64,000 nucleotides of DNA from a virus, in the IMG/VR virus record IMGVR_UViG_3300025897_000009; one strand, 5' to 3'. The notes beneath the pieces were generated by a model that saw only the letters and a list, made by a program, of their open reading frames with translations, was not told where the DNA came from and made no database searches. Of the stretch, positions 1 to 64,000 are shown piece after piece. A program made the translations under genes and the position numbers. Numbering within the stretch: the first letter of the stretch is position 1; the number at the start of each line of letters is the position of its first letter.

Positions 1-670
1 CATCCATGATACTTCGAATAAACTCAATCAAAAGTTTTTTACCTTTGATTCCTAGATAAGCATATGCCTCTTTTAACTGTTCACAATCCTCTTTGTTCTC
101 AAGTTCGTCTATCATTAAACTGTAATGTGTTGGGATCAATGAAGTAGACTTAGCATTTAAGTCTAGTGCTTGGCACCATTCATACATATTGAAGTCTGAC
201 TTGAAATCATTATCCAAGAATTGATCAATCTCATACTCAACATCACCCAGCATGTCCATCAGTTTATCTTCCATAAGTTGCTGAACTGATTTCTTTGGTT
301 TACGAGTTGAGACAGTAACTGATACCACTTTTCCTTTAGTTGCTTGCAGTTCGCGAATGGTTGAGTCAAGTCTAGTTTCTAAATCAGAATCTAGTTTCGC
401 ACCAAGCATTTTCTGCCTAACTAAAGATACAAAGGAAGTCATCATAAAACTGTTTGGGACACCTATAAAAGATTTGTAGAAATCTTTATCATAGTTTGCC
501 TTTACATAGTCTCTCATGACTTTGCCTTTCGTCGGAGTATCAAACATCACTCTATACCAATTGAAAATTGGGGCAAGAACTGCGTTCTCATTCGCGATGC
601 TTGCTAACATCGGTTCTGGACCATAGTGTATAGTGTTTAGGTCTTTCGCACTTCGTTTAGATTTTTTCAT
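1..670 (-). CDS. Hypothetical protein, runs off the window edge
   Basis: Manually read open frame MKKSKRSAKDLNTIHYGPEP...GIKGKKLLIEFIRSIMD with no stop before position 1; ATG 6 nt after a promoter -10 box. Confidence 0.75.
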   Translation of the reverse strand, partial: MKKSKRSAKDLNTIHYGPEPMLASIANENAVLAPIFNWYRVMFDTPTKGKVMRDYVKANYDKDFYKSFIGVPNSFMMTSFVSLVRQKMLGAKLDSDLETRLDSTIRELQATKGKVVSVTVSTRKPKKSVQQLMEDKLMDMLGDVEYEIDQFLDNDFKSDFNMYEWCQALDLNAKSTSLIPTHYSLMIDELENKEDCEQLKEAYAYLGIKGKKLLIEFIRSIMD

Positions 671-676
671 TATCAT

Positions 677-706
677 ATTGTAGTAAAAAACAATGGGTGT
701 CGTAAA
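677..706 (-). promoter_or_regulatory. Sigma70-like phage promoter (TTTACG-N18-TACAAT)
   Basis: Member of a motif repeated 13 times in intergenic positions. Confidence 0.75.
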
Positions 707-707
707 G

Positions 708-1097
708 TTATTTCCACCAGTGTGTCATGTAAAGATAGTCTTCATATAGATATGCTTCTTTTTCAAACTCATCTGATGTCATGTGAAAAGAACCTGTAGT
801 TTTGATTTTTTTGGATGAGGGTATTTCACCTCTAAAGAATTGCTTGACATGTACTAATTCATGAGCAAGAGTGACCATCATATCTTCAGTGGTATCTCTA
901 GCAATCTCTATATCAACTGCATTCTTATCACCATATGCGACACCCTTATATGAATAATCGTCTATGACAACTTCGTTCTTGAACTCGATGTAGATTTGAC
1001 CTTTCTTTTTACGAGGCATTAATTCGAACATGATTGATCGTGCATAGTCTTCTACACGATTCTTTTGACGACCATTAGCAACTATAATTTCAATCAT
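708..1097 (-). CDS. Zincin-like metallopeptidase domain protein
   Basis: TLAHELVHVKQ (HExxH) with downstream E..AY. Confidence 0.65.
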   Translation of the reverse strand: MIEIIVANGRQKNRVEDYARSIMFELMPRKKKGQIYIEFKNEVVIDDYSYKGVAYGDKNAVDIEIARDTTEDMMVTLAHELVHVKQFFRGEIPSSKKIKTTGSFHMTSDEFEKEAYLYEDYLYMTHWWK

Positions 1098-1341
1098 CTA
1101 CTTCAGGAAAGTAATTATCTGCCTTTTCATTATATCCATAGAAAGATCCTTCTTTTTCTTCCTTCTTTGGAGATTTGGCAGGACACCAATTACAATCTTC
1201 ACCCATCGCAGTATCAGTCGGTCCACTATCGGGACAATCATGATGCCACCATTCTATTTTATTCACTTGTTCATTTTGAGTCATACATTCACAGTCCAAT
1301 CTTTTCTTACCACACTTGGGGCATTCAATCATTAAGTACAT
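1090..1341 (-). CDS. Cys-rich hypothetical protein
   Basis: CPKC, CEC and CNWC motifs; late promoter directly upstream. Confidence 0.55.
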   Translation of the reverse strand: MYLMIECPKCGKKRLDCECMTQNEQVNKIEWWHHDCPDSGPTDTAMGEDCNWCPAKSPKKEEKEGSFYGYNEKADNYFPEVDD

Positions 1342-1346
1342 AAGAT

Positions 1347-1354
1347 TATTTATA
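1347..1354 (-). promoter_or_regulatory. T4-type late promoter TATAAATA
   Basis: Exact gp55 consensus, 5 nt before the ATG at 1341. Confidence 0.6.
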
Positions 1355-2009: not shown

Positions 2010-2010
2010 G

Positions 2011-2325: not shown

Positions 2326-2328
2326 AGT

Positions 2329-2703: not shown

Positions 2704-3309
2704 CTAAAAGTATTCAACCCAACCTGTTGCTATGTACTTCTCACCACTGAGTGGTGGATTCCCTCGATGCAAATGAGTAAAGTATGCAGGAAATACAAGT
2801 GCTGTTCCTGCTTTAGGTTTAAATCGTAAGTGTTGATGTAGGAATTCTGTTTCGCCACCTTCTTCAACATCATTCAGGAATACAGACCATGCTAAGAATC
2901 TATCTCTATCATGAGTCTTGGTACCATTTTGTTCACAATGCCAAATGTGATAACCTTGTCCAGGAAGTGTTCTTTGCACTTTACCCTCAAACACACATCT
3001 AGGATTCTCACCAAGTATCGGATGTTGTTTGACATATGCCTCTACGATTTCATCATTCATGTACTCTAAGAAACCTGCTTGGTTTTGAAAAGTAATCTTA
3101 GACAGTTCTGGACTAGGTTCTGCGAGAGTCATTGATTCGTCATCTTTACCAGTGATCAATGAATCATCATACTCTTGTCGCATTCTTGTCTGACCCCTTT
3201 CTTTGCTGGTTTTGAATGCATCGATCAGTTCTTCGCAATGCTGATCTGTAATTGCATTCTCAAAGACACCGATAAATTCTTTCATCTCAAATGTAGTGTT
3301 TTCCATCAT
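2704..3309 (-). CDS. 2OG-Fe(II) oxygenase (prolyl-4-hydroxylase-like)
   Basis: YHIWHCE, FLNDVEEGGETEF, THLHRGNPP, KYIATGW. Confidence 0.9.
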   Translation of the reverse strand: MMENTTFEMKEFIGVFENAITDQHCEELIDAFKTSKERGQTRMRQEYDDSLITGKDDESMTLAEPSPELSKITFQNQAGFLEYMNDEIVEAYVKQHPILGENPRCVFEGKVQRTLPGQGYHIWHCEQNGTKTHDRDRFLAWSVFLNDVEEGGETEFLHQHLRFKPKAGTALVFPAYFTHLHRGNPPLSGEKYIATGWVEYF

Positions 3310-20381: not shown

Positions 20382-22052
20382 TTAAATACTTTTTAGTACT
20401 CCTCTGTTGTTCTTATAAACTGTATATTGGCCACCATCTTTATCAACTTTGTTTGCTTTATTAGCATAGTTGATAGCATCTTTTTGCATATTGGCACCGA
20501 ACACTAACTTCTCTTTTTCCTTTCTCTTTTTGTTTTGATAAGATACAACAAAGTTATTTTTTGAAAATTGTCTAGGATCCATGCTTTCGTTTGCTTGTCC
20601 TGGAGTATCTTTAGAATACACTTGTCTAATTCTGTCAGTACCAAGTTCTAGATAAGAGTCATTACAATTACCATCACCAAGATTGTATTTGGGTTCTTCG
20701 TTCTTTTGCTTTTTCTTTTTAGCAATAGCAATTGCTGCTTGCTGTGCAGGGTTTGCTGCCTCTGACCACCAATCTTTGAATAGTGCGAAAGACTCATTCT
20801 TTTGTCCTTCTCTAAACTTTTTCAGTCTTTGCATTTCTTGCTTTCTTACAGCAGGAAGTAATCTCTTAGAAAGTTTTTTAATAGCACCTTTCTTCTTTTC
20901 AAGTTTCTTGGCAATATTAACTTTTTGTGAAATAGAAAGATCTGCCATGCTTAAACTACCCAGCATTCTTTTTGCTATTCTAGTTCTTGCTGCTCTCATT
21001 GCTTTCATTTGCAACTCATTAGCATTTTTCATTCTTCTCTTTTTTCTTGCTGCGGATCTTGCTCTTTTCTTAGCAGTTCTTCTAGCAATTTGACCTCTCT
21101 TCATTCGTTGCTGAACAGAGAGTGCTTCTTCTATGCTGTTAAAGGGTTCAAAATCTTCGCCCATAGTAAGACCAGATAATTGCTGAACAATTGTTTGTAA
21201 TTGAGGTGTTGGGATTGATGCCAAAACCTCAAGTTGCTTTTTTGAAAGACCTTTGACCCTAGCAAACATCTTTTTGATATCTACTTTTTTTTGTTCTGGT
21301 AGATTATCATCTACAGTACCATAAGTTTCACAAGGTGTATTGCCACAACCACAGTTCTTTTCTTCAGTCTGTGCTCGTTTTTCTCTTTCTGCTCTTTGTC
21401 TAGAAGTTTCTTTGTCTTTAAGCATATCCAGTTTTTTCTTAGAATCTGCTCTTGCCTTTGCTATCTTATCTTTTTGCATTTCTGCAGATTTTCTCATATT
21501 AGCAAGGTTGCGTTCTCTTTCTCTTTTGACTCGTTCTTTATGTGCTTTTTCTTTTGGATCTTCTTCTGCTTCTTCTTCGACTTCAGTCTCTTCTTTTCTA
21601 CCCTTTTGATATTTCTTAATAGAGTCTTTTGCAGACTTCATCATTGCTTTTTGATGTGCCTTTTGTTGAGATTTAGTTTTATCTCTTAATATATCTGCAA
21701 GTCTTTTTTCTGTGACTTCTTCTTCTGCTTCTTCTGGTACACAGTTGGGAACCATCTTGTCCCCTTTCTTTTTCATACCTTCTTTTTTGTATCCATTCCA
21801 GCAATCTTCATTGAACTGAGAGAAAGTCTTTTTATGTTCTACATGATCTCTTAAATCTTTATCTGCTGTGTTGTATGTTTTACCTTTAGTGATGTAAGAA
21901 TTTACTCTAGCAAATGCCCATTGTTGTGGTGTAGTTCCAGGTCTATGCCCTGTTTTCCATGCTGCCATACCTCTATCATACACTTTCTTCAGTGTACCAT
22001 AAGATATTCCAGACTCTTGTGCTTTCTTAACTAATCCTGCTATCTTTGCCAT
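20382..22052 (-). CDS. Large multidomain charged protein, probable head-associated
   Basis: N-terminal KKVYDRGMAAW...QQWAFARVNS domain, CWNGY...VPNCVPE motif, basic helical segments. Confidence 0.7.
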   Translation of the reverse strand: MAKIAGLVKKAQESGISYGTLKKVYDRGMAAWKTGHRPGTTPQQWAFARVNSYITKGKTYNTADKDLRDHVEHKKTFSQFNEDCWNGYKKEGMKKKGDKMVPNCVPEEAEEEVTEKRLADILRDKTKSQQKAHQKAMMKSAKDSIKKYQKGRKEETEVEEEAEEDPKEKAHKERVKRERERNLANMRKSAEMQKDKIAKARADSKKKLDMLKDKETSRQRAEREKRAQTEEKNCGCGNTPCETYGTVDDNLPEQKKVDIKKMFARVKGLSKKQLEVLASIPTPQLQTIVQQLSGLTMGEDFEPFNSIEEALSVQQRMKRGQIARRTAKKRARSAARKKRRMKNANELQMKAMRAARTRIAKRMLGSLSMADLSISQKVNIAKKLEKKKGAIKKLSKRLLPAVRKQEMQRLKKFREGQKNESFALFKDWWSEAANPAQQAAIAIAKKKKQKNEEPKYNLGDGNCNDSYLELGTDRIRQVYSKDTPGQANESMDPRQFSKNNFVVSYQNKKRKEKEKLVFGANMQKDAINYANKANKVDKDGGQYTVYKNNRGVLKSI

Positions 22053-34831: not shown

Positions 34832-35666
34832 AATATTCTCCTAGTTTGTCATCGTCAAAACTAGATCTCCAGTTTACTCGATGTTTGTGGTTATCGTTTA
34901 AGATAACTCTGTGATTTGTCATGAGTTGATTCCATATTAGAATGTCACCTTTCTCATACCTGTGCTTATAAGCAAACATCGGATTGTTTGCTTCCATCTC
35001 TATGTGATTCATCAGTTGTATAACTTTTGGATCTTGTTGCTGATTAATCATCGTTGGGTTAAAGCAATAATGCATTTTACCAAAGAACGATTGAACTAAT
35101 GGATGATCATGACTTAACTTCTCATAATCTTCAGTAGTTGGGTTCTTAATAGTATGTATATTCGTATTGAAGTGGGTGTACTGCACATCCTTTGCTTCTT
35201 CTTTATGTTGACTGTACTTATAAGTTGCTGCCAAGTTTCTAAACTCAGTCATCGGATGAGGTGTTCCCTCGACCGATTGATTCATGATAATACTGAATCT
35301 TGTTGGTTTGGGCATACAAGTCATATCTTGATGCCATTCACCGATGTACTTTCCATTTGCTTTGAATAAGTCATCTTTGTTATCCATTGCATAGATATCC
35401 ATAGGAGTCATATGCATTTTGGGTTCATACTTGCTCAGAGGCACATGTAATTCATCTGCACCCATAGTTCCTAAACTATTAATGAACTTGAATGCCCATT
35501 CCCTATCACCTGTTCTTACTTTTTTAGAACGAATAATTACCAATGGTGATCTGAGTAGATTATCCCAAATATCTTCAGGTTCTATAGTATCTACAAGAGT
35601 AAAATTATTCGGGAAGGATATGTTTAACATTATCGCTGTAATATTCCTTGATAAGATTATCGTCAA
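34818..35666 (-). CDS. TauD/TfdA-family dioxygenase
   Basis: WHQD, GDILIWNQ..TNHR, terminal R. Confidence 0.8.
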   Translation of the reverse strand: MTIILSRNITAIMLNISFPNNFTLVDTIEPEDIWDNLLRSPLVIIRSKKVRTGDREWAFKFINSLGTMGADELHVPLSKYEPKMHMTPMDIYAMDNKDDLFKANGKYIGEWHQDMTCMPKPTRFSIIMNQSVEGTPHPMTEFRNLAATYKYSQHKEEAKDVQYTHFNTNIHTIKNPTTEDYEKLSHDHPLVQSFFGKMHYCFNPTMINQQQDPKVIQLMNHIEMEANNPMFAYKHRYEKGDILIWNQLMTNHRVILNDNHKHRVNWRSSFDDDKLGEYYASR

Positions 35667-36447
35667 AGTTAGAACGATACATAATTCTTTTGCCAGTGTA
35701 AGTTTCTGGTATGATTGCTCTATGTAAAGTTGCTGTATGATTCCATATTACAATATCACCATTCTTCCAATGATGAGTGTGTTTGAGTGTGTTTCTGTTT
35801 TCATACACTTCTTTAAACACACTAGTCGAAAACTCTGCCCAATTTTTACACTCTTGATTTAGAGGTGGGTTATAACTGAAATGCTTTCTACCAAACCATT
35901 CTTGTACCACAGGGTGATAATATGCTCCTTCATATGCTTCGGTATGTAATATATTGTCTATGTCTTGACCTGATGGATCAAAGACTTTATGTAATAATTG
36001 CATTTTCAAATTTTGATGCTCGCTGATTCGATAAGCATCAAACAAATCTATAAATTCGGTTGGGGGTGCATCATAAGTGTCTACTGCTTTAGCATATAGC
36101 AAACAGAACTTAACAGGTTTCTCTGTTGCTGTATAATCTTGGTGCCAATGCTTAGTGTATTGATTCTGTGCTCTGTCCCAATCACTTTGAGAATCAAATT
36201 CTGTAACAAATTCATGGGTGTTGGGTGGGTTTCCAAACTTACTTCCGATCTCTTCTTTCCATTGATCTAGATCGTTCATGTCTACACCATCTAAGCAAGT
36301 TCTCCAACAAGGTTGACCCAACTGCCTAGTTAGGTCTGCGATATCAGACATCTCAAGTTCTTTACCGAGACTGAGATGTACTATAGGTGAGAAGATAAGT
36401 GCTTCTTTAATCTTATCTATATCTAAATTGAATAATCTTGTAAACAT
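35605..36447 (-). CDS. TauD/TfdA-family dioxygenase (paralog)
   Basis: WHQD, PTEF, W..GDIVIWN..TLHRA, R.MYR. Confidence 0.85.
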   Translation of the reverse strand: MFTRLFNLDIDKIKEALIFSPIVHLSLGKELEMSDIADLTRQLGQPCWRTCLDGVDMNDLDQWKEEIGSKFGNPPNTHEFVTEFDSQSDWDRAQNQYTKHWHQDYTATEKPVKFCLLYAKAVDTYDAPPTEFIDLFDAYRISEHQNLKMQLLHKVFDPSGQDIDNILHTEAYEGAYYHPVVQEWFGRKHFSYNPPLNQECKNWAEFSTSVFKEVYENRNTLKHTHHWKNGDIVIWNHTATLHRAIIPETYTGKRIMYRSNFDDNLIKEYYSDNVKHILPE

Positions 36448-37871: not shown

Positions 37872-37948
37872 TGGCGATCCAGAAGGGACTCGAACCCTCA
37901 ACTTCTGCCGTGACAGGGCAGTGCTCTAACCAATTGAACTACTGGACC
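37872..37948 (-). tRNA. tRNA-Asp (GTC)
   Basis: Cloverleaf, CTGTCAC anticodon loop, GTTCGAGT T-loop, encoded CCA. Confidence 0.95.
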
Positions 37949-37952
37949 AAAG

Positions 37953-38028
37953 TGGTGGAGTGAGAGGGACTCGAACCCTCGACCTCTTCCGTGCAAGGGA
38001 AGCATTCTCCCAACTGAACTACCACCCC
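37953..38028 (-). tRNA. tRNA-Ala (TGC)
   Basis: GGGG 5' end with G3:U70, CTTGCAC anticodon loop, encoded CCA. Confidence 0.95.
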
Positions 38029-38032
38029 ACAT

Positions 38033-38108
<76 letters not shown>

Positions 38109-38223
38109 ATTCATTTGTCTATTTTGTATTTGCGCCATTTCCATAACAATAAACGAACCCTCCACCGATAGTAGAAGGTTCGTAGTTTGCTAATTCTTTC
38201 ACGCAAATTCATAATACAAGTAT

Positions 38224-38259: not shown

Positions 38260-38712
38260 TTATTCAGAAAGTAAACTTTTTTTAGATGTTTTGCTTACTT
38301 TTCCACCAATATCGAAGATTTTTGGTTTCTTTTCTTCTGGAATAATGCGTTCTAGATCAATGAGTAAGATACCATTGGCCAAGTCAACATTAACTACTTC
38401 CACATCTTCAGCAAGGGCAAAAGATCTTTTAAAGAAACGAGAAGAGATTCCTTTGTGTAGGAATGACTCTTCGTCATCTTTATCTTTGTTTCCTTCAATG
38501 AACAGAGTGTGTTCTTTGAGTTCTACTTTAAGATCATCCTTACCAAAACCAGCGACTGCTATTTCAATAGTGAAATGCTCATCATCTGTTTTGCGGATGT
38601 TGTAGGGTGGATATGATGTAGAGGAATTTGCTTGAGACGCAATCTCTAATCTGTTGAATAAGGAATCTAGACCGATTCCATACATAAGGTTTGATGTATT
38701 AAATGTTACCAT
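38260..38712 (-). CDS. Small heat shock protein (Hsp20/IbpA-like)
   Basis: YPPYNI, IEIAVAGF, LHKGIS.R.F, NGIL, PEEKKP; start reset to MVTFN with AGGAG SD. Confidence 0.95.
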   Translation of the reverse strand: MVTFNTSNLMYGIGLDSLFNRLEIASQANSSTSYPPYNIRKTDDEHFTIEIAVAGFGKDDLKVELKEHTLFIEGNKDKDDEESFLHKGISSRFFKRSFALAEDVEVVNVDLANGILLIDLERIIPEEKKPKIFDIGGKVSKTSKKSLLSE

Positions 38713-42328: not shown

Positions 42329-43123
42329 TTAGTTGCCTTGTGTCACTGATATCGAACATCCACCAACTGTTTGACAATCTTGCGTAAGAGAATAAGTTTG
42401 TGCTGTGGATCCTTGTTGAAGCATGTATAAGTCTGTATCATATGTTCCATTTATTGTAACTGTGGCAGTATGTGTCGCACTTCCCTGTTGTATCATATCA
42501 ACATCATTGTAACTATTATTGATTGTTAAACTGAGTGTTTTGTCTTGGTTGCTTTCTTGTCTTGTGTACACATCGTTATAATCACCATAGATATAGGTGA
42601 TGTTTGAATGTTCGTGTCCTGAGTTATTTGCTCGTTGACTTCCCAAAAACTTATTGTTAGAACCATGAATATCTAATCGTGTAAAATGCCCACCATATTC
42701 ATAATCATCAATTGCTAACAATGTGCCTGAACTTGTTACATGATATCCTTGATAGAAGTCTACATCATTACTATTGCCTGCGATATGAAATTCAAATCTA
42801 TCACTCCCACAGGATGATCCTTGATTACATGTTTGTACAATTTTTAGATTATTGTAATCGCCATCTAAATCTCCACCCCAACTTAAACCTGAACCCCATA
42901 ATGTAGTGTAACCAACATATGCACTATTGCCTTGTTGTGTTATGTCAACTACATTATTGGCACCACCCACACTAAAATCTACTTTGCTGTTGTATCCTGT
43001 TTGGTTTATGGTGAGATCAAAGTTGTTACCCACTTGATTCATATAGATTTCATTATCTTGTGCTATTAGTAATGAAGCATAAGATGCTAAAATCATCCAA
43101 CCAATAATAAGCAATTTGTCCAT
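42329..43123 (-). CDS. Curlin-like beta-solenoid repeat protein
   Basis: Signal peptide; repeats of type N.I...Q.G..N (NEIYMNQVGNN, NVVDITQQGN, NDVDMIQQG, ISVTQGN). Confidence 0.75.
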   Translation of the reverse strand: MDKLLIIGWMILASYASLLIAQDNEIYMNQVGNNFDLTINQTGYNSKVDFSVGGANNVVDITQQGNSAYVGYTTLWGSGLSWGGDLDGDYNNLKIVQTCNQGSSCGSDRFEFHIAGNSNDVDFYQGYHVTSSGTLLAIDDYEYGGHFTRLDIHGSNNKFLGSQRANNSGHEHSNITYIYGDYNDVYTRQESNQDKTLSLTINNSYNDVDMIQQGSATHTATVTINGTYDTDLYMLQQGSTAQTYSLTQDCQTVGGCSISVTQGN

Positions 43124-44259
43124 TATCCTTCCTGTTTTATAATTATGTTAATAGAACCACCTTCGTTCACTGTAATCTCACTGGTAGCACCTGAGTTGTT
43201 GGTGGCATTGATAGTAGCATTTGCTTCCATACTCATTTTTATCGATAACACACCACCAGCATCTCTAAAGAATGTCACTGTACCTGAACCCTGATCGATA
43301 AAAGTATTGAAGTTGGTGACTTTGTCAAATCCTGGAGCAATTGTCCCTTTGATAAAAGAACCATCTCCCGATTTGTTTTGAGAGCCACCACCTTTCTGTC
43401 TTTGTATTTCAATATTTTCTAATACTTCTAATACATCTTGAAGTAAATCAACATCAAGTAAGTCAATATCTAATTCAGTAAACTCTAAACTGTCTTCTGT
43501 TAATTCTGGATCTTCTTCTAATAAGTTTTCTTCTAGTAGATCTATATCTAATATTCCACCATCTGAAGAATCACTCGAAGACATCTCTTCTTGCTGTTTT
43601 GTTATTTCTTTTGGTGGCGAAACTATAAACATGTTATCAATTAGATTCATGTCTATATCTAAAGTTGTTGGTGGAGTTGGACTCGTTTCTATATTCGGAG
43701 TCATTGTTGCTTGATATGCCTCGTTAAGAGTCACACTACCACCAGCAGTCGTCACCAATATCTCACCAGATGCGTTTCCGTTTTCATCTGGTAATAGTAT
43801 GATGAGAGATCTTCCTATCTCATCTACTGTTGTTGTAAAGTCTGTTCCCCTAATTGCTATATTTGCAGATGGGGTAGTAATATTTATATTTTGTTTGGGC
43901 ACCAACCCAATCTTTCCTGTAGCAAATCTTGCTGTGCCTGATGCGAATCGCATAGACATTTTGCTTTTACTAGGATTTGGATCGTAGACAACTTCGTCTA
44001 TGATCACTTTGCTGTGTTCTGTAAGTTTAAGAGTGGTATCGTCTATGAAGGTAACTTCTAATCTACCCTTCCCTGTACGCACATCATCATTGGAGAGTAT
44101 ATCAAATTCCAACTCTGGATCATATTGCTCTGCTGTTCGCAAAACCTTAGATCCAGAGCCAGACATGTCTGTAATATCCCCAATCGGTGAGGCATACGCA
44201 CTCCCAACTAGCAGTGTGCTAGTCAGCAGTATCTTGTTGAGTGATTGCAATAACTGCAT
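43123..44259 (-). CDS. FecR-domain periplasmic protein
   Basis: Signal peptide, DDVRTG, F.DDT.LKL...S, TPSANIAIRGTDF; acidic linker. Confidence 0.85.
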   Translation of the reverse strand: MQLLQSLNKILLTSTLLVGSAYASPIGDITDMSGSGSKVLRTAEQYDPELEFDILSNDDVRTGKGRLEVTFIDDTTLKLTEHSKVIIDEVVYDPNPSKSKMSMRFASGTARFATGKIGLVPKQNINITTPSANIAIRGTDFTTTVDEIGRSLIILLPDENGNASGEILVTTAGGSVTLNEAYQATMTPNIETSPTPPTTLDIDMNLIDNMFIVSPPKEITKQQEEMSSSDSSDGGILDIDLLEENLLEEDPELTEDSLEFTELDIDLLDVDLLQDVLEVLENIEIQRQKGGGSQNKSGDGSFIKGTIAPGFDKVTNFNTFIDQGSGTVTFFRDAGGVLSIKMSMEANATINATNNSGATSEITVNEGGSINIIIKQEG

Positions 44260-44938
44260 TATCTGATGTCACGTCTAAATCAATGTGCCCATAACAAGAA
44301 GTAACTCCTGTTGGACATGTCCCTGATTTTTGTATAATATCTAAATCACCACTGCCACCATCAAAGTCAACTGTTTGATATTGATAAGCACCATCTGTTT
44401 GACTTGACACGATGTCATTATCTGAACCATCAACTTCCCAATCCCATGTAGCATCGTCAACTTCTACATCTATATCAAATGTATTAGTAGATCCTGTTAA
44501 GACTAGGTCAAAATCAAATCTTTCTGCTGAGGTCACATAACCCCAGTCTAAGTCCCAAGTGTTTGAATCTCCTGTAGCACTCAGATCAAAATCTGAACTG
44601 TCTGTACTTCCAAGATATCCTATATTCCAGTCTAAAACATTTGAGTCACCAGTGAACAAAGTTGTGAAACTTGAACTATCTGATTTAAGTGGACCATAAA
44701 GAATATTACTATTACCTATTTGGTCTATATCAATATTTAAACTAGAACCTGTTATAACCATATCGGCAGCAGTTGAACTAAAGTCATTGCCTCCGATTTT
44801 ATTTCCATAACCTGTTTGTTGAATGTTCAGGTTAAGAGTATCACCAACTTGCTCTATGAAGATTTGGTTGTCAGATGTACTTTGCGCATAAGTTCCTACT
44901 GACACGAGTAGTATTACTAAAGATGTTAAAAATTTCAC
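44219..44938 (-). CDS. Curlin-like beta-solenoid repeat protein
   Basis: Signal peptide; DNQIFIEQVGD, IQQTGYGN, IDQIGNSN, repeated TGDSN. Confidence 0.75.
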   Translation of the reverse strand: MKFLTSLVILLVSVGTYAQSTSDNQIFIEQVGDTLNLNIQQTGYGNKIGGNDFSSTAADMVITGSSLNIDIDQIGNSNILYGPLKSDSSSFTTLFTGDSNVLDWNIGYLGSTDSSDFDLSATGDSNTWDLDWGYVTSAERFDFDLVLTGSTNTFDIDVEVDDATWDWEVDGSDNDIVSSQTDGAYQYQTVDFDGGSGDLDIIQKSGTCPTGVTSCYGHIDLDVTSDNAVIAITQQDTAD

Positions 44939-45840
44939 CTTTTTTCTCCTGTTTCGTTATCGGCATCCACTTGAGGGAGTCTCCTCCAATAACCTCGTTC
45001 TTCCCCTTGTAATATAATACTAAAGACTGCCTCCTCAATGGCAGTTCGTACAGCATAGGTCACACTCTCATTCTCAGAGATTCCATCTTCTATTTCGACT
45101 AATTTAGTGTCGGTATCTACGAATCGAAAAACATCGAATCCTTGAGCAACACTTAAAACAGTTTTGTATGACTGGACATTCATAAGAACTTCTCCAGTTG
45201 ACACACTAACTGCTCGCAGAGATATTATAACTGCATCTCTACGATATTGTTGGCTGGCACCGACACCTAAGTATCTGGCACCATTACCACCTGTTTCTAT
45301 GTTCGTATCATATCCGATGATTCCTCCCTCGAATATCATACCAGCAAATAACATTGGTTGAATGACTTCTTTATCATCATTCATATCTAAGTAAGTTTGG
45401 CGAGTTGATTTAACAATCTGTCTTTCTCTTACTAAGTGATCTAATCCTGTTCTTTCTACAACTCTAAACCATTTGCCATCACCTGCTGCTTTGAGTGCAT
45501 CAATCAATAAAGATTCTGCACCTTGTGTCACAGCAGTTGAAAAGTCAGCAATGTTTTGTTTAGACTTTCTTTGCCCTGTTAGATCATTAAACTTATAAAC
45601 TGCGACCACTGGTTGCTGATAGGGTGGTCTTAATAGTTTTAATTTTTTATGTGTAGGCAACTCAACATTTGTTGGACCTTCTACACAAGGGATAAATTGC
45701 TCATAGGTAGAACCATAGATATCTTTCACTTGGAACTTACCATCTGCCTCTACGCAATCTAATACTCTAGGATTGGGCATTGATGCACAACCTGATAGAA
45801 TAAGAATAACTGCTAGGAGGACTTTAACCACCGATGCCAC
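44935..45840 (-). CDS. csgG: Curli secretion channel CsgG/HfaB-family lipoprotein
   Basis: LSGC lipobox, VAVYKF.DLTGQ, FSTAVTQG, WFRVVER.GL..L..ERQI, EGGIIGYD. Confidence 0.93.
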   Translation of the reverse strand: MASVVKVLLAVILILSGCASMPNPRVLDCVEADGKFQVKDIYGSTYEQFIPCVEGPTNVELPTHKKLKLLRPPYQQPVVAVYKFNDLTGQRKSKQNIADFSTAVTQGAESLLIDALKAAGDGKWFRVVERTGLDHLVRERQIVKSTRQTYLDMNDDKEVIQPMLFAGMIFEGGIIGYDTNIETGGNGARYLGVGASQQYRRDAVIISLRAVSVSTGEVLMNVQSYKTVLSVAQGFDVFRFVDTDTKLVEIEDGISENESVTYAVRTAIEEAVFSIILQGEERGYWRRLPQVDADNETGEKR

Positions 45841-57505: not shown

Positions 57506-58138
57506 CTACAGTATATCTATTGTCATGGTATGCACATTGCGTGTGTACCAAAATGGTAAAGTGTATCGTTCTGCTCTTCTGACTTTAGTTACTCCATGAT
57601 AAAATTCCATTCCTTGAAACATAACCAACTTGCCTGCTTGGGGTTCTATTTCAAATCCCATGGGTAATTCAGGACAGGGTTCAAAATATGTTTTGCCCCC
57701 ATCATAGTTATCGTTCAAGTATAGAATAGATGCCCATGCTGTTTCTGGATAAATATCTTCTCCTGTTTCAGGGTCTGCCATCTTATCGATATGAGGATTC
57801 TGATCCATCCCAACCTGCCATCTCATGATCTCTGCTTGTTCAGGATAAATTTGATCTTGGTATGCACCATATATCTGTGCGATAGTGATGAATTGCACTT
57901 TACGCATCAAGTTTCGTATGTGATGGGTTCTGATGCTCTCAAAGGCAATACGTCTACCATTGTAATGCTCGGCAGCATCATTATAGGTGACCATGTGTTG
58001 GTGGGTTTTGTGAAAGTGTATTAGATGCCTACATTCAGAATCTGACAGAACATTAGGCAGTTCTAATATTTTGAAGTCTCTCAATGAGTCTTGACTGCTC
58101 TCTTTTTCGTTTTGTTCTTCGTTTAATTGCTCGTTCAA
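57506..58138 (-). CDS. 2OG-Fe(II) oxygenase
   Basis: PHID, LYLNDNYDGG, YHGV, RYT; start uncertain. Confidence 0.88.
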   Translation of the reverse strand: MNEQLNEEQNEKESSQDSLRDFKILELPNVLSDSECRHLIHFHKTHQHMVTYNDAAEHYNGRRIAFESIRTHHIRNLMRKVQFITIAQIYGAYQDQIYPEQAEIMRWQVGMDQNPHIDKMADPETGEDIYPETAWASILYLNDNYDGGKTYFEPCPELPMGFEIEPQAGKLVMFQGMEFYHGVTKVRRAERYTLPFWYTRNVHTMTIDIL

Positions 58139-58595: not shown

Positions 58596-59885
58596 TTATC
58601 CAAAAAATGATTCTAATGTGTTTCGTTCGTTATCAGCAGGGAAACCATGATAGACTAAGTAATCATCCCACTCTTGTTCATCCCACATTGATGGTGAGAT
58701 ACCATTCCATAATGGTCTCCAGTGTTCATGCTCTTTATTGTTCTTTCTTTCATAAACATACTGCTTTCTGAGTTGCTCATATTCAAAAGAACCTGCCTCT
58801 AGCATCTTCTCTCTGAAATAACAAACGATTGACATTCTTTCAAATCCATCGTCACCGATGATCTCAGTGTTTCCATGAATGCCCTCATGATTATTTATAA
58901 GCAACAAATCTCCAGGACGAATGTTGATTGCCACTCTAAATTCTGGTAGCACTAGATATCCACCTTTGAAATCCTTTCCATTAGTAAGACAACATAAATT
59001 AGAGAAACCTGAACTCAAATCGCCAGCATCTCTATGGGCAGCAGTTCTAAATGTTTTGTTCACAGTCGCAGTGGTAAACACTGTATCTGAGATTAAGAAC
59101 TTAGGATCTAGTCTGTCAGCATGTGATCTTTGTGATGCATATCTTTCTGGTAATAGATCTTGAAAATAGTTATCAAGTTTGTTTAAAAATGGAAATGCCA
59201 TCTTAAACTTCTCAGGGTTATGCTCTGTAAATGATGTGGGTCTGCAATAAGGTATTCTTGGATATCTATCAAAGAAACCTGCGATACCACTATACACTGC
59301 TTGAGCATACGATGTTTCTGAGATGTATTCACTTGCTATCTTTGTAGCATATGCATTAGCATCTTCAGGACTCATGGCTCTGAGTTTAGCAAGTATTTGA
59401 TCAAAGAATCCTTCATATTCAAAATCTGGATCATCTTTGATTTTGTTTCTCAACCAAACCATACCTCGAGTGGGTACAGAATCATCATCTTTCCACTTCT
59501 CAAGTATTTGATCAACAGGATCTTCATCAAACAATGAACTACCACCTGACATGAAGTGGTCGAGTAATTCTAGTTGACAATCTGTCACCCAGTCTCTATT
59601 ACCCTCTTTTTCACCTCTTGGTCCAGCAGCAAGACCTCTGTTGTGTGTTTGACCTGCTGCCTCAATCAGACCATTATAGCAGTCTTCCATCTCTGTAGCA
59701 GTGAACACATTCTTTCTAAATTTGAACATGATGTTTGCTTCTGATCTTTCATCAGTTAGAGTTGGTGGAGCATAAAAATCTGTATCTGATTCGACTACTA
59801 AGTCAAAGTGTGATTCATCCAGGAACTTACCTAATAGATGCTCACAATCGTGTTTACTTTTTGCTTGTATTACTTCTACTGTCAT
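58596..59885 (-). CDS. TET/JBP-family 2OG-Fe(II) dioxygenase
   Basis: SGIAGFFDR, FTT.TVN, RTAAHRDAGD (HxD), GGYLVLPE, IHGNT, RMSIVCYFR. Confidence 0.8.
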   Translation of the reverse strand: MTVEVIQAKSKHDCEHLLGKFLDESHFDLVVESDTDFYAPPTLTDERSEANIMFKFRKNVFTATEMEDCYNGLIEAAGQTHNRGLAAGPRGEKEGNRDWVTDCQLELLDHFMSGGSSLFDEDPVDQILEKWKDDDSVPTRGMVWLRNKIKDDPDFEYEGFFDQILAKLRAMSPEDANAYATKIASEYISETSYAQAVYSGIAGFFDRYPRIPYCRPTSFTEHNPEKFKMAFPFLNKLDNYFQDLLPERYASQRSHADRLDPKFLISDTVFTTATVNKTFRTAAHRDAGDLSSGFSNLCCLTNGKDFKGGYLVLPEFRVAINIRPGDLLLINNHEGIHGNTEIIGDDGFERMSIVCYFREKMLEAGSFEYEQLRKQYVYERKNNKEHEHWRPLWNGISPSMWDEQEWDDYLVYHGFPADNERNTLESFFG

Positions 59886-59927: not shown

Positions 59928-60752
59928 TTAAAAAAAACTGTCCAAAGCATTTGCTGTTTCAACTTTAGAAGATTCATATACTGCTTTCCATTTAACTCGA
60001 ACTTCAGTTCTAGTTGTGGCACCTTGTTCAGCAACCCAAGAAGGATTGTCCTTTTCATACTGTGTCACATAATTAGGAAAGTGTTTCATTAATTGTATTT
60101 GACTTTGTTCTTGTACTGTGTTATCGCGAGACACTGAGTTACCACCACTGGTGCCATGCTTGTGATCAAATACCCAATCATGAAGCATTAGATTCTTGTG
60201 TCCTTTTTCAAACATTGCTAATAGAACATAGAAGTCTTCAAGTATCTTTGCTTGTGGGTTCTCATCTTCTAAGACAGTAAAACTTACCCCAGCATCTTGT
60301 ATCATTTTAGAGTTGATACCATAACAGGAGTAAGATCTAATAATCTCAGATCTAGATTCTTTATGTAATGTGTTAGATGATTTTGGCGATGGTCCAACCC
60401 AGAAGTAATTGTCGAGTTCTTTTTCAATTTCGATAAACATTTGGGCATATTCTGCAGCAGTTTCGAGTTTAACATGTTTAATTTTGTCACCCTCATATAC
60501 TCGTTTCATAAAGATACACTGATCGTCGATGATCATCACCTTTTCACCTAGTTCCATACAAGACTGTCTGACTCCAGGAATGAATAACTCTGCATCCCAC
60601 TCATGAACATTCATTGTTGGGTTATGCTGTTTTAAAATAGAACCTCTACCACTATGAGTTGCTACAACAACTCTTTCTTGTATCTCTTTAGGCAAATTGT
60701 TATATGCCTTTTGATTCTCTTCTCTTTTATAAGTTGGAATTACAATAATCAT
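59928..60752 (-). CDS. GT-A fold glycosyltransferase (TET-associated GT-like)
   Basis: IVIPTYKR, IIDDQ, LED, GGNS..R, terminal W; adjacent to TET/JBP. Confidence 0.75.
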   Translation of the reverse strand: MIIVIPTYKREENQKAYNNLPKEIQERVVVATHSGRGSILKQHNPTMNVHEWDAELFIPGVRQSCMELGEKVMIIDDQCIFMKRVYEGDKIKHVKLETAAEYAQMFIEIEKELDNYFWVGPSPKSSNTLHKESRSEIIRSYSCYGINSKMIQDAGVSFTVLEDENPQAKILEDFYVLLAMFEKGHKNLMLHDWVFDHKHGTSGGNSVSRDNTVQEQSQIQLMKHFPNYVTQYEKDNPSWVAEQGATTRTEVRVKWKAVYESSKVETANALDSFF

Positions 60753-61198
60753 AATTCGTATTCTCCTACATAGTCAGAGCATATGGCATGACATACTCTA
60801 CTAAATTCTTGTGACACATACTCAGGCATCACCTGTATACTTCTGCTCGTCAATTCTTTTCCTGGTTGAGTCCACATATACCCACTACTTGTGAGTGTTG
60901 TATCATCACTTTGATGAAAGAAAGTGTTAGACACTTCTGAATCCAATAACATCTTAAATGTTCTTATATCTTTCGCATGCACCCATGTGTGATCATTTAC
61001 AAGTATATCATCTGGGCAAACCTCTTGAGGATCATCATGTCCTAGATAAAATGCTCCATTGTTATTCCCTGCATCTATGTATCTAATATCGATTTCAACA
61101 TCATATCCTCTGCCCAGTGCTTCTAGAATGTAAGAGATAGTGTTTTCTCGTTCTATCTGCTTACCATCAATGTTTCCTCTATGGGCAATAAGTATCAT
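60749..61198 (-). CDS. Glycerophosphodiester phosphodiesterase-like protein
   Basis: IAHRG, ENT, VEIDI, LGHD, ICSDY. Confidence 0.8.
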   Translation of the reverse strand: MILIAHRGNIDGKQIERENTISYILEALGRGYDVEIDIRYIDAGNNNGAFYLGHDDPQEVCPDDILVNDHTWVHAKDIRTFKMLLDSEVSNTFFHQSDDTTLTSSGYMWTQPGKELTSRSIQVMPEYVSQEFSRVCHAICSDYVGEYEL

Positions 61199-61545
61199 CT
61201 TTCTATTTCGTATTTATCTCCGATTACACATGGAGTTTTTACACACATAATAGTACAATCTTCTTTAAAGTTTGGATCAACTACAAAGTCGGGATGTATA
61301 ATAAACACATCTCCTTTAACATATTCAACACCATCTATTTCAACAACACCATCAAACACATAGTTGTATTCAGTTGCCTCTTTATGATAATGCTTTTCCC
61401 AGACTTGACCTGCTGGATGCATCTTAACTGATACTTCAAAGTCATTGGTCTTGAGTAGTGAGGGTTCGAAGTTTCCTATAAACCAACCACCTGTAAAATC
61501 TTCAATGCGAAACTTTTCTATAGTTCCTCTTTTATCTTCTGTCAT
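61195..61545 (-). CDS. Cupin-fold protein
   Basis: GWFIGNFEP, HYHK..TE. Confidence 0.7.
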   Translation of the reverse strand: MTEDKRGTIEKFRIEDFTGGWFIGNFEPSLLKTNDFEVSVKMHPAGQVWEKHYHKEATEYNYVFDGVVEIDGVEYVKGDVFIIHPDFVVDPNFKEDCTIMCVKTPCVIGDKYEIER

Positions 61546-62015
61546 CCTCTTATACCCTCTGTTTGTTTTCTCATGTACATATAATTTACCCATGCTACAA
61601 ATCTATCTTTGTTATCTTTGTACCAATAGAATACTTTGCCTAGATACCTATCCATTGATCTTTCAGGTGTATAGTCTGACGATAGGGAAAGAATGTCAAA
61701 CATTTGACAGTTAGATTCTTCCTCCCAATATGTTTCACCTGTTTGATCCATTTCTGGAGAGTCTTTCCAAAATTCTGCTGCTGCTATTTTTTCACCAGTG
61801 TCATGTAATGTGAACATAGTATCTTCTTCTGTGTAATGATAATGTTCTCTAACACACCTAACTAATTCTTCTTGGTATGATCTTTCTTCTATGCGTGATT
61901 CCCAACCATCATATAGAGTCATAACTTGACTCACAATTAGTATTGGTACAGCAAACCTTGTAGTAAACTTATCCCAGAAATTTCTTAGCATTCTAACAGT
62001 TCTTTTGCTTTCCAA
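61542..62015 (-). CDS. Hypothetical protein with N-terminal TM
   Basis: Coupled ORF. Confidence 0.55.
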   Translation of the reverse strand: MESKRTVRMLRNFWDKFTTRFAVPILIVSQVMTLYDGWESRIEERSYQEELVRCVREHYHYTEEDTMFTLHDTGEKIAAAEFWKDSPEMDQTGETYWEEESNCQMFDILSLSSDYTPERSMDRYLGKVFYWYKDNKDRFVAWVNYMYMRKQTEGIRG

Positions 62016-63067
62016 CCTTGATCAGTAATGACATTTACATTACCTGCTCTTGGAGCACTTGTTTCTGAAATGATATCATTCACAACAATTCTTTTACCTT
62101 GTGAGACACCAAGTATCAAGTGGTCGTATGGTATACCCAATCTGTCTAACAGTCTTTGAGTAAACTCCCTAGATGATTCTTTACGAGCAGAAACTAGCAC
62201 GATGGTATGACCTTGAGAATCTAATTCATCCATTGATTCTATTACTCCAGGACATGCTTCATTTTGACCCTCATATAGATTAGAATATCTGTGACCATGC
62301 ATTAAAACTGTACCATCTAAGTCAATAAAGAATGTTCTTGGTTTCGCCATACGATACTCTGCCAAGTATCCTTTAAATATGTAGAAGTCTTCAGGAGTGC
62401 CCAACGACCAATACTTACCTTTGATGCCTACAGATTTGATGTTCTTGCCTTCTTTAATCAGATATGAGTATGTTTCTGATAGATAAGATTCTCTATCTTT
62501 AGGACAGTTATCGATTAGTTGCTGTGCTGAGGATAGGAAGTCTGCTCCCTTTGCCCACCAATGTAAACCCACCAGTGCCTCGTTAGAGATAGGATTCTTT
62601 TCTACTATCTCAAAGATCTTACCATTGTTATCTGATCTACAAAAAGAGTTCTTGGGATCTATAGATTTGTAAGTAAGAACTGAACCCACTACACCTTTAG
62701 ATCTAGATCGAGTAAAGAAATCTTCAGTGTCCCAATCTAAGTATTGATCACAGTTTGTTACAATCAGTTCGTCTTTAGGGTCTATCAACTCAGACGCAAG
62801 AAGTGCTGTTTCAGTAGCACCACCTGTAAGTCGATTAATCCATATGATCTCTGCTTCGGGAACAACTTGTTCAATCTCTTTCTTATACCCTTTACCAAGA
62901 TCTCTGGCAACTAATACGATCTTCCAAGATTCATCTAAGTTAAGTGAATCGATAGAATGTCTTATAAGTTTTTCACCATCAATCTCAATAAGAGGTTTGT
63001 GTACATTGAATCCTGCTTTAGTAAATCTAGAGCCAAGACCTGCCATTGGTATAACTAATGTTTTCAT
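61985..63067 (-). CDS. Sugar nucleotidyltransferase fused to HAD phosphatase
   Basis: IPMAGLGSRF...KPLI, NCDQ, EK, LGTPED; C-terminal IDLDGTV, SAR. Confidence 0.85.
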   Translation of the reverse strand: MKTLVIPMAGLGSRFTKAGFNVHKPLIEIDGEKLIRHSIDSLNLDESWKIVLVARDLGKGYKKEIEQVVPEAEIIWINRLTGGATETALLASELIDPKDELIVTNCDQYLDWDTEDFFTRSRSKGVVGSVLTYKSIDPKNSFCRSDNNGKIFEIVEKNPISNEALVGLHWWAKGADFLSSAQQLIDNCPKDRESYLSETYSYLIKEGKNIKSVGIKGKYWSLGTPEDFYIFKGYLAEYRMAKPRTFFIDLDGTVLMHGHRYSNLYEGQNEACPGVIESMDELDSQGHTIVLVSARKESSREFTQRLLDRLGIPYDHLILGVSQGKRIVVNDIISETSAPRAGNVNVITDQGWKAKELLEC

Positions 63068-63073
63068 AGTTCT

Positions 63074-63103
63074 ATTGTATCGTTAATTGTATTGTGTTGT
63101 AAA
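63074..63103 (-). promoter_or_regulatory. Phage promoter (TTTACA-N18-TACAAT)
   Basis: 6 nt before the nucleotidyltransferase ATG. Confidence 0.7.
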
Positions 63104-63110
63104 GTGGGTT

Positions 63111-64000
63111 TTAAGAAATAGTAGAGAAATTTTTATCTTTTTTAAATCGTATAACATTATCAAACTTCTCATATAGAATCTCACCTTTATGTGAAATGAC
63201 AAAGGTGTTTTGATTCTCTGTCAAGTTTCTTATGATATTTAGAAACTCTTCAGTACCTGCCTCGTCTAATGATGAATCCATGATCTCATCTAAGACTAAG
63301 ATGTTTGTGTTAACACTGTTTCTTAACTTAGCAATAGATCTCCAAGTAAAGAGTAGTGCCAAGTCAATACGCATCTTCTCACCCTCAGAAAAGTTAGCAT
63401 ACTTGAACTCATCTCTAAATCTGGATTTGATTGTTTCTTTAAACTCTTCATCTAAATGAAAGTCTACAAAGAACTCCATGCTTGCCAAGTATTTGTTTAT
63501 GAGTTTGTTCATGATAGGTAAGAACTGTCGAATGACTCGTGTTCTGATACCTGAATCTGTCAATACTTTCATTGCTGTATCATAATAGAACTCTGTATCA
63601 GTAAGATCTTCTCTGTTCTTTTCGTAAGATTGAAGTTTCTGCTCACTCTCTTTTAACTTTTCTTCATAGTTAGTAGAGTCTTCACTTTCTTTTTGTAGTG
63701 CAGCAATCTCTTGTTCTATCTTTTTAACATACTTTTGATTTGAGATAACTTCAGATTGTAGAACAGCAATTTCATTTTGAATTGTTTGTATCTCACTTTG
63801 AATAACACTGATCTCTTCTAGTCTGTCATTGTAATCTTTTACCTTTAGATCTAGATCCCACAACCCTTGCTCAAGTTCCGAGATCTTATCAGTTCTTTCT
63901 TTGTTGTGTTCTTTTTTATGGTTTTCATCAATGCCTTGTTTACAAGTTGGGCAGTTGTCATTGTTTTCTAAAAACTCCATCTCTTTGCGTATCTTTTTAC
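63111..64000 (-). CDS. 46: Recombination endonuclease ATPase subunit (gp46, Rad50/SbcC-like), 5' part outside window
   Basis: CPTC zinc hook, coiled coil, FSEGEKMRIDLA, LDE, ISH. Confidence 0.95.
   Translation of the reverse strand, partial: KKIRKEMEFLENNDNCPTCKQGIDENHKKEHNKERTDKISELEQGLWDLDLKVKDYNDRLEEISVIQSEIQTIQNEIAVLQSEVISNQKYVKKIEQEIAALQKESEDSTNYEEKLKESEQKLQSYEKNREDLTDTEFYYDTAMKVLTDSGIRTRVIRQFLPIMNKLINKYLASMEFFVDFHLDEEFKETIKSRFRDEFKYANFSEGEKMRIDLALLFTWRSIAKLRNSVNTNILVLDEIMDSSLDEAGTEEFLNIIRNLTENQNTFVISHKGEILYEKFDNVIRFKKDKNFSTIS

What the first reader, a model, noticed from the sequence alone, without database searches (positions are those of the whole stretch)
1..64000. Window-wide avoidance of AGCT and RGCSB words
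Seen by visual scan, not counted: no AGCT or CCGG noticed, while GATC, CTAG and TGCA are common. AGCC, AGCG, GGCG and GGCC appear almost only when followed by A (or, for reverse complements, preceded by T), e.g. AGCCA near 14973, 17766, 43383; TGGCT near 6763, 23223; TGGCCA near 20428, 38375. One exception noted: GCGCC near 38132. Inference: the footprint of a GpC-centred cytosine methylation/hypermodification or of host restriction. This would fit the TET cluster, since characterised phage TETs act on GpC-methylated DNA, and it predicts the target motif.
Basis: partly seen in the sequence, partly recalled or inferred. Interest (0 to 1): 0.75.

Follow-up and report, generated by a model that had tools for sequence, protein, structure and literature searches.

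The report
Strict GpC/CpG word avoidance in phage
This T4-like aquatic phage tolerates the DNA steps GC and CG only when a T sits just upstream on one strand, a strict and actively maintained rule that looks like escape from DNA-cutting enzymes and was not caused by GpC methylation feeding its TET gene cluster, as first proposed.

Summary
In 64 kb, AGCT = 0 (159 expected from codon shuffles) and CCGG = 0. GGCC occurs twice, both as TGGCCA.

The underlying rule covers both GpC and CpG. All 1,829 GpC and 982 of 1,000 CpG have T, or T plus one G/C, directly 5' on at least one strand. About 342 GpC violations were expected in coding DNA. The rule holds in intergenic DNA, in tRNA genes and in relatives only 80% identical. 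There, about 108 forbidden words should have arisen by drift and none did, so selection is ongoing.

The pattern is composite:
- **RGCY/AGCT avoidance** occurs more weakly in TET-less marine T4-like phages (P-SSM2, Syn9, HTVC008M).
- **CpG-word avoidance** is shared with neighbouring lineages.

No C5-cytosine methyltransferase was found in the window or in relatives, including one complete genome. The GpC-methylation reading is therefore not supported. Escape from short-site nucleases is the best explanation.

One open lead remains. The strict flank form appears only in TET-bearing lineages in my sample, so a T-directed hypermodification shield is possible. An earlier scan note on another T4-like phage reached the same verdict on RGCY.

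The parts
1..64000 (.). Window-wide rule: a GpC or CpG is tolerated only with T (or T + one G/C) directly 5' on at least one strand. AGCT, RGCY, CCGG, ACGT, GCGC, CGCG and all other V-GC-B / V-CG-B words are absent or rare.
   Evidence: 1829/1829 GpC and 982/1000 CpG comply; 0 vs 342 expected strict GpC violators in coding DNA.
20428..20433 (.). One of only two GGCC sites, in the tolerated form TGGCCA
38376..38381 (.). Second GGCC site, also TGGCCA
38132..38136 (.). GCGCC, the single RGCSB-class word in the window. It is followed by A, so it still obeys the flank rule. It lies in the spacer beside the tRNA cluster.
37872..38108 (-). tRNA-Asp, tRNA-Ala and tRNA-Thr genes; their G+C-rich stems also obey the rule
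   Evidence: residual words at 37873 and 38097 listed
58596..59885 (-).
   Evidence: PF12851 E=7e-23; 57 homologous loci
59928..60752 (-). TET-associated glycosyltransferase-like protein (just under the Pfam cut-off)
   Evidence: PF20691 27.3 bits against a cut-off of 27.5, E=4e-6. Not conserved next to the 90%-identical TETs of L001 and L002.
61985..63067 (-). Nucleotidyltransferase-HAD phosphatase fusion (probable sugar-nucleotide supply)
   Evidence: PF00483 and PF03767

Best explanation
The window belongs to a T4-like aquatic myovirus whose whole genome is under strong, continuing selection against short DNA words centred on GpC and CpG. Shown: every GpC and 98% of CpG carry T, or T plus one G/C, directly 5' on at least one strand, and all other contexts are missing. 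Shown: the phage complies through neighbour-dependent synonymous codon choice. For example, Ala is GCT after a T-ending codon but GCA in 342 of 355 cases after an A-ending codon. Shown: the rule is preserved through 16% sequence divergence. Shown: the pattern is a composite of an RGCY/AGCT avoidance common to marine T4-like phages with or without TET and a CpG-word avoidance shared with neighbouring lineages, both driven to the extreme here. Inferred: the selective agent is double-strand DNA cleavage by nucleases with very short GC/CG-centred targets (RGCY-type, CCGG-, ACGT- and GCGC-type, or one promiscuous enzyme that is blocked by a 5' thymine). These nucleases could be encoded by hosts or by competing phages. 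Inferred: GpC cytosine methylation feeding the TET cluster is not the cause.
For: Size of the depletion against a codon-aware null and in intergenic DNA. Symmetry between reverse-complement word pairs, although 87 of 96 genes lie on one strand, which points to duplex DNA rather than mRNA. One flank matrix fits both GC and CG. There are 0 AGCT and 0 strict violators in G001 (98.8% identical, extends 13 kb beyond the window) and in G002 (80-84% identical, 49 kb). Context-dependent Ala, Ser and Gly codon choice. TET-less complete genomes P-SSM2, Syn9 and HTVC008M have RGCY at O/E 0.12-0.39 and AGCA/TGCT at 1.5-2.3, plus CCGG, GCGC and CGCG near 0. RGCY is the most frequently modified motif in marine myovirus MAGs (PMC8919816), so RGCY is under pressure in this phage guild. 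Other TET-bearing lineages show different, ordinary-looking lists of avoided motifs: GGCC, CCGG, GTWAC, ACSGT, GAGGC, or clean RGCY, or GGCC alone in DLP6, or none in Cr30. No C5-MT was found anywhere it was looked for.
Against: No nuclease or host has been identified. All 12 V..B words with a GC/CG centre are depleted and none of the 8 T../..A words is. A random set of restriction enzymes would not give that partition, so either one unusual enzyme or a shielding effect of the flanking T is needed. In my admittedly biased sample the strict 'zero-block' occurs only in TET-bearing lineages and clusters on the TET tree. The few tolerated RGCY and ACGT words need a T that is itself followed by G/C (TGGCT-S 19/19 and 17/18; ACGT-S 21/26 and 19/20). 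That hints at something acting on T-S steps.
Confidence: 0.58

Rival explanations
1. Thymine-hypermodification shield. The TET homologue is a T-dioxygenase that makes 5hmU at 5'-T-S steps, and this is then glycosylated by the neighbouring transferase. A bulky T directly 5' of a G/C run blocks nucleases from the major groove. Only GC/CG words without such a T are then exposed, and those have been purged. This is the best explanation plus a causal role for TET.
For: The rescuing feature is always a T followed by G/C on one strand. Tolerated RGCY and ACGT words need T-S on the 3' side as well. Characterised phage 5mYOX enzymes oxidise T after replication with NTC or NTG preference, usually have no C5-MT neighbour and often have a GT neighbour (PMC13229309). 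That matches the gene content here. The zero-block index B<0.12 is found only in TET-bearing lineages.
Against: AGCT is absent even as S-AGCT-S, where both T's would be modifiable. TET-bearing Cr30, DLP6, C48C1 and the 19-row 'none' clade lack the flank rule. In the other TET-bearing block lineages GGCC is not rescued by T..A flanks (TGGCC 0/48 and 0/36). Known T-hypermodified phages ViI, PhiW-14 and SPO1 show no such matrix. Known enzymes prefer either TG or TC, whereas both would be needed here. The glycosyltransferase set is not conserved among close relatives that share the rule.
Confidence: 0.24
2. A GpC[C/T/G]-specific C5-methyltransferase plus TET hypermodifies cytosine, and words modifiable on both strands (V-GC-B) are purged, for instance because a modification-dependent nuclease needs symmetric marks or because opposed lesions break the DNA. 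Words modifiable on one strand only (AGCA/TGCT) accumulate.
For: V-GC-B is exactly 'GCB on both strands' and RGCY is 'GCY on both strands', the two specificities reported for TET-associated C5-MTs (PMC8256090). AGCA/TGCT is enriched 2.5-fold.
Against: No C5-MT in the window, the clade fragments, a complete genome or an 89%-complete genome with homologous TET. CpG words obey the same rule, and those MTs do not target CpG. TET-less phages share the RGCY depletion. T-S-GC-S-T words are absent although they would be modifiable on one strand only.
Confidence: 0.07
3. Self-avoidance of a phage-borne frequent cutter. The phage, or phages of its guild, degrade host or competitor DNA with a very short-site nuclease, as chloroviruses do with R.CviJI (RGCY). 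The phage stays immune by lacking the sites.
For: RGCY depletion is shared by T4-like phages of Prochlorococcus, Synechococcus and Pelagibacter, hosts which (my own knowledge, not tested here) are unlikely to share one restriction system. RGCY methylation is common in marine myovirus MAGs. T4-like phages without modified cytosine need another way to tell self from host DNA (my own knowledge, an inference).
Against: No candidate nuclease with such a specificity was identified. The SNase-like ORF at 29782-30216 has no known sequence specificity. The relaxed CviJI pattern as I recall it (spares YGCR) does not match the words spared here (TGCN/NGCA).
Confidence: 0.08
4. Mutational bias: context-specific deamination or repair, without selection against the words.
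For: The transition products AGTT/AACT are mildly enriched (O/E 1.26).
Against: Counts of zero against hundreds expected, and zero new forbidden words among 2,300 substitutions. The main compensating words are AGCA/TGCT and GGCA/TGCC, which a C-to-T transition cannot produce from the depleted words. TGCT and AGCA each contain the half-contexts GCT and AGC that a strand-wise mutator would also destroy.
Confidence: 0.03

Closest known systems
Restriction-site (short palindrome) avoidance in phage genomes
   Same: Strong under-representation of 4-bp palindromes (AGCT, GGCC, CCGG, ACGT, GCGC, CGCG) on both strands, in coding and non-coding DNA, maintained by purifying selection.
   Different: Non-palindromic words are equally affected. 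The avoided set is not a list but a rule (any GC/CG step lacking a 5' T or T-S on both strands). Depletion is absolute over at least 125 kb of clade DNA. No cognate enzyme is known.
RGCY avoidance and RGCY methylation in marine and freshwater T4-like phages
   Same: AGCT, AGCC/GGCT and GGCC are depleted with AGCA/TGCT excess, as in P-SSM2, Syn9, HTVC008M and the L026 group. This is independent of a cytosine methylase.
   Different: Here the depletion is 0-0.09 instead of 0.1-0.4. It extends to AGCG, CGCC and CGCG and to all V-CG-B words, and only T (not C) at -1 rescues a site.
Phage C5-MT / TET / glycosyltransferase GpC hypermodification clusters (Burke et al. 2021, PMC8256090)
   Same: A TET/JBP dioxygenase with a TAGT-like glycosyltransferase and sugar-nucleotide enzymes. 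The depleted word class equals 'GCB on both strands'.
   Different: No C5-MT was found in the window, in clade fragments or in the relatives searched. The TET is a conserved gene of a T4-like lineage with changing tailoring genes. The CpG rule is unexplained by this system.
Phage T-dioxygenase (5mYOX clade C) pathways (O'Toole et al. 2026, PMC13229309)
   Same: TET/JBP domain, no C5-MT, GT neighbour, no ParB seen. The published NTC/NTG preference resembles the T-S flank that rescues GC/CG words.
   Different: Clade membership and 5hmU formation are untested. No published link exists between such enzymes and genome-wide word avoidance.
Chlorovirus CviJI (RGCY) restriction-modification
   Same: The same four core words.
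   Different: A eukaryotic-virus system that protects itself by m5C methylation rather than by avoidance. The spared words differ, and no homologue was identified here.

Membership tests
Restriction-type oligonucleotide avoidance | Word counts far below a null that preserves protein sequence and codon usage | tested here: met
   AGCT 0 vs 159, VGCB 85 vs 519, VCGB 101 vs 427, strict GpC 0 vs 342.
Restriction-type oligonucleotide avoidance | Acts on duplex DNA: symmetric for reverse complements and present in non-coding DNA | tested here: met
   AGCC 12 / GGCT 7, AGCG 14 / CGCT 21; 0 of 146 intergenic GpC violate the rule (about 46 expected).
Restriction-type oligonucleotide avoidance | Maintained by purifying selection rather than inherited by chance | tested here: met
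   about 108 forbidden words expected among 2,300 differences from G002; 0 seen in either genome.
Restriction-type oligonucleotide avoidance | A cognate nuclease in the host (or a competitor) with matching specificity | not testable with these tools
C5-MT/TET/GT GpC hypermodification (Burke 2021) | TET/JBP dioxygenase | tested here: met
   PF12851 E=7e-23.
C5-MT/TET/GT GpC hypermodification (Burke 2021) | Functionally associated C5-cytosine methyltransferase | tested here: not met
   No PF00145 in the window proteins scanned or C5-MT motif set in any called ORF, in G001-G006, or in G007-G011 including a complete genome. The rest of this phage's own genome could not be searched.
C5-MT/TET/GT GpC hypermodification (Burke 2021) | 5hmC-derived bases at GpC in virion DNA | not testable with these tools
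   Needs LC-MS/MS or modification-aware sequencing.
Phage T-dioxygenase pathway (5mYOX clade C, ParB-independent) | TET/JBP enzyme without neighbouring C5-MT or ParB, with a glycosyltransferase neighbour | tested here: met
   no C5-MT or ParB among the roughly 60 window proteins scanned with Pfam; TAGT-like GT adjacent (27.3 bits, cut-off 27.5).
Phage T-dioxygenase pathway (5mYOX clade C, ParB-independent) | Groups with 5mYOX89/97 in phylogeny; oxidises T to 5hmU | not testable with these tools
   Reference sequences are not at hand. The PDB search gave only marginal hits to a fungal Tet (E=0.12).
CviJI-type RGCY restriction | Only RGCY words affected; RGCR and YGCY spared | tested here: not met
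   AGCG 0.17, CGCC 0.28, CGCG 0.08 are also depleted. The clean RGCY form is seen instead in the L026 group.

The most novel reading that the evidence does not exclude
The flank rule is a sequence-level read-out of a thymine-directed hypermodification. The TET homologue oxidises T at 5'-T-S steps and the product is glycosylated. That bulky T shields the adjoining G/C run from very short-site nucleases, so the phage has purged only those GpC/CpG words that cannot be shielded. The genome would then reveal both the target context of a phage T-dioxygenase pathway and the specificity of the nuclease pressure it answers.
Probability: 0.24. Interest if true: 0.85.

Novelty: new variant of a known kind. 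Interest (0 to 1): 0.6.

Why it matters
Short-word avoidance is the fossil record of the nucleases a phage has met. Here that record is unusually sharp: not one of 1,829 GpC steps breaks a single flank rule, and the rule has survived thousands of substitutions. This points to a powerful, still unidentified DNA-cleaving pressure on aquatic T4-like phages, centred on RGCY and CpG words. RGCY is also the motif that marine myoviruses most often methylate. The result gives precise, testable words for finding that nuclease. It also corrects an attractive but unsupported shortcut (TET implies GpC methylation implies motif depletion). Finally, it leaves a concrete hypothesis about thymine hypermodification that one LC-MS/MS run or one modification-aware sequencing run on virion DNA could settle.

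Tried and rejected
- **Codon usage or amino-acid composition:** rejected by synonymous codon shuffles and by the intergenic result.
- **mRNA-level selection:** rejected, because reverse-complement pairs are equally depleted although nearly all genes are on one strand.
- **Assembly or library artefact:** rejected, because the same rule holds in contigs from at least six independent metagenomes and the encoded proteins are intact.
- **Pure mutational bias:** rejected.
- **VGCB as RGCY avoidance plus a CpG rule only:** this explains most words, but not why TCGCC is followed by A in 32 of 33 cases.
- **Relaxed CviJI specificity:** the spared words do not match.
- **T-hypermodification as a general cause of the matrix:** ViI, PhiW-14 and SPO1 show nothing similar.
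- **The 'block' of the G011-like and L038 lineages as the same single rule:** their k-mer lists look like separate motifs (GGCC, CCGG, GTWAC, ACSGT, GAGGC) with no T..A rescue of GGCC.
- **An exact 39-mer search of viral contigs** found nothing.
- **The window's own assembly** is not held, so the rest of this phage's genome could not be searched for a methyltransferase.
- **PDB sequence search with the TET** gave only marginal hits.


Full report
**What the window is.** The window has 36.5% G+C, and 87 of 96 called ORFs lie on the minus strand. It carries a T4-type replication module:
- ribonucleotide reductase NrdA/NrdB
- primase
- gp41 helicase
- UvsX
- gp43 polymerase
- clamp and clamp loader
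- RegA
- gp46

. It shows only weak nucleotide matches, all to Synechococcus T4-like phages. It is therefore an aquatic T4-like myovirus. The TET/JBP dioxygenase lies at 58596-59885. Next to it are a TAGT-like glycosyltransferase and a nucleotidyltransferase-HAD fusion, directly downstream of gp46.

- AGCT and CCGG are absent. GGCC occurs twice, both times as TGGCCA. GATC, CTAG and TGCA are common.
- On both strands AGCC, AGCG, GGCG and GGCC are followed by A in 19/19, 35/35, 33/34 and 4/4 cases.
- With 200 synonymous codon shuffles, AGCT is 0 against 159+-10, V-GC-B is 85 against 519, and V-CG-B is 101 against 427.

**The real rule is broader and simpler.**
- Among NGCN words only TGCN and NGCA are common. 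All nine V-GC-B words sit at O/E 0.00-0.28. The NCGN table shows the same partition.
- All 95 surviving V-GC-B words on the plus strand have T two bases upstream or A two bases downstream.
- I sorted every GpC and CpG by its 5' flank (T, T-S, S-S, A-S, A) and its 3' flank and compared with codon shuffles. Both dinucleotides give the same matrix. T at -1 or A at +1 is always tolerated. T-S..S-A is tolerated. T-S..T and A..S-A are half tolerated. Everything else is zero.
- In plain terms, 1,829 of 1,829 GpC and 982 of 1,000 CpG have T, or T plus one G/C, directly 5' on at least one strand.
- The 18 CpG exceptions are almost all ACGT or CCGT followed by G/C.
- G/C runs made only of G or only of C show no such preference.
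- The rule holds in intergenic DNA (0 of 146 GpC, about 46 expected) and in three tRNA genes.

**How the genome complies.**
- Alanine after a T-ending codon is mostly GCT (286 of 530). After an A-ending codon it is GCA in 342 of 355 cases and never GCT.
- AGC, GGC and CGC codons are followed almost only by A.
- G|C codon junctions are free only after xTG.
- The missing words reappear mainly as AGCA/TGCT and GGCA/TGCC.

**The rule is selected, not just inherited.**
- G001 is 98.8% identical and reaches 13 kb beyond the window. G002 is 80-84% identical over 49 kb. Both have no AGCT and no strict GpC violator.
- The window and G002 differ at 2,300 of 14,115 aligned positions.
- 4.7% of all possible single substitutions would create a forbidden GpC word, so about 108 were expected under drift. 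None exists in either genome.
- This finding, the zero counts, and the fact that TGCT and AGCA contain the same half-contexts as AGCT together rule out a strand-wise mutational process.

**Relation to TET and to methylation.**

Fifty-seven viral contigs carry a homologue of this TET. Their word statistics differ by lineage:
- Close relatives (86-90% identity) and L036/L051 share the full pattern.
- A large 30% G+C group and the L038 group avoid GGCC, CCGG, GTWAC, ACSGT, GAGGC and (L038 only) ACGT and GCGC, but not AGCT.
- A 19-row clade shows a clean RGCY depletion with CpG words normal.
- Among cultured phages carrying a 46-54% identical TET, Cr30 shows nothing and DLP6 lacks only GGCC.

Conversely, the complete genomes of P-SSM2, Syn9 and HTVC008M have no TET/JBP gene. 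They still show RGCY at O/E 0.12-0.39, AGCA/TGCT at 1.5-2.3, and CCGG, GCGC or CGCG near zero. AGCT/RGCY avoidance is therefore a property of marine T4-like phages that does not need TET. RGCY is also the commonest modified motif in marine myovirus MAGs (PMC8919816). That shows the motif matters in this guild.

No C5-cytosine methyltransferase was found:
- in the window proteins that were scanned
- in clade fragments
- in five large contigs with homologous TET, one complete and one 89% complete

According to PMC13229309 only about 6% of phage TET-family loci have a C5-MT, and most are inferred to oxidise thymine.

**What remains open.**

Two things keep a TET link alive.
1. V-GC-B is exactly the class in which both strands read GpC[C/T/G], and RGCY the class in which both read GpC[C/T]. 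These are the two published specificities of TET-associated C5-MTs. Without a methyltransferase, and with CpG obeying the same rule, I rate this as a coincidence of symmetry (7%).
2. The strict 'zero-block' index is below 0.12 only in TET-bearing lineages and clusters on the TET tree. The few tolerated RGCY and ACGT words require a T that is itself followed by G/C. Characterised phage T-dioxygenases prefer NTC or NTG. A bulky modified T at T-S steps that shields the adjoining G/C run would explain why only a T flank rescues a site.

Against that second lead:
- AGCT is absent even where both of its T's would be modifiable.
- Several TET-bearing lineages lack the rule.
- The other block lineages do not rescue GGCC with T..A flanks.
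- ViI, PhiW-14 and SPO1 show no such matrix.
- My sample was chosen by TET similarity, so it is biased.

I give the shield model 24%.

**Verdict.** The finding is real, strong and more general than reported. The best-supported reading is selection-maintained escape from very short-site, GC/CG-centred DNA cleavage. It is inherited in weaker form across marine T4-like phages and is extreme in this clade. The proposed GpC-methylation/TET cause is not supported. A thymine-modification shield is a plausible and testable addition.

Noticed in passing
L189-L193 (G011, complete 145-kb TET-bearing genome) and L038/L040/L041: These lineages avoid GTWAC (0 vs 164 and 0 vs 75 expected), GAGGC/GCCTC (1/46, 0/39), ACSGT (0/53, 0/22), GGCC and CCGG. 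GTWAC is listed as a methylated motif of marine prokaryotes in PMC8919816.
   Followed up: partly
L155-L159 (Pelagibacter phage HTVC008M, 100 kb sampled): TCGA occurs at O/E 0.01 and CCGA/TCGG at 0.04, while CCGG is near normal. This is a TCGR-type avoidance, opposite to the window, where TCGA is favoured.
   Followed up: no
L139 (Stenotrophomonas phage DLP6, 41 kb, 55% G+C): GGCC is completely absent while all other NGCN words are normal.
   Followed up: no
G012:C1:114717-115082 and G013:C1:97977-98372: The nearest gp46 relatives outside the clade (53% identity) lack a close TET homologue next to gp46. They carry a second, divergent Tet_JBP ORF (361-362 aa, E about 1e-12 to 1e-13) elsewhere. 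They show CpG-word avoidance and a 4-fold TGCA excess.
   Followed up: partly
window 59928-63067 compared with L001, L002, L003, L139: The tailoring genes beside TET (TAGT-like GT, 149-aa and 157-aa proteins, cupin, NTP-transferase/HAD) are found only in the window and in L058. Relatives with a 90% identical TET lack them nearby. L003 and DLP6 have a 37-38% identical TAGT.
   Followed up: partly
window 2704-3309, 34818-36447, 57506-58138: Four further 2OG-Fe(II)/TauD-type oxygenase genes besides the TET; one lies directly downstream of it.
   Followed up: no
window 29782-30216 (-): Staphylococcal-nuclease-like ORF (PF00565, E=4e-8) between uvsX and the DNA polymerase gene. It is the only obvious non-repair nuclease in the window.
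   Followed up: no
window 43123-45840 (-): CsgG (PF03783, E=3e-50) and a FecR-domain protein inside the phage replication region. Another reader has already noted this curli-like module.
   Followed up: no
window, whole: TGCA and TCGA, the two T..A-flanked palindromes, are mildly depleted against codon shuffles (O/E 0.59 and 0.71), although they are the 'allowed' forms.
   Followed up: no
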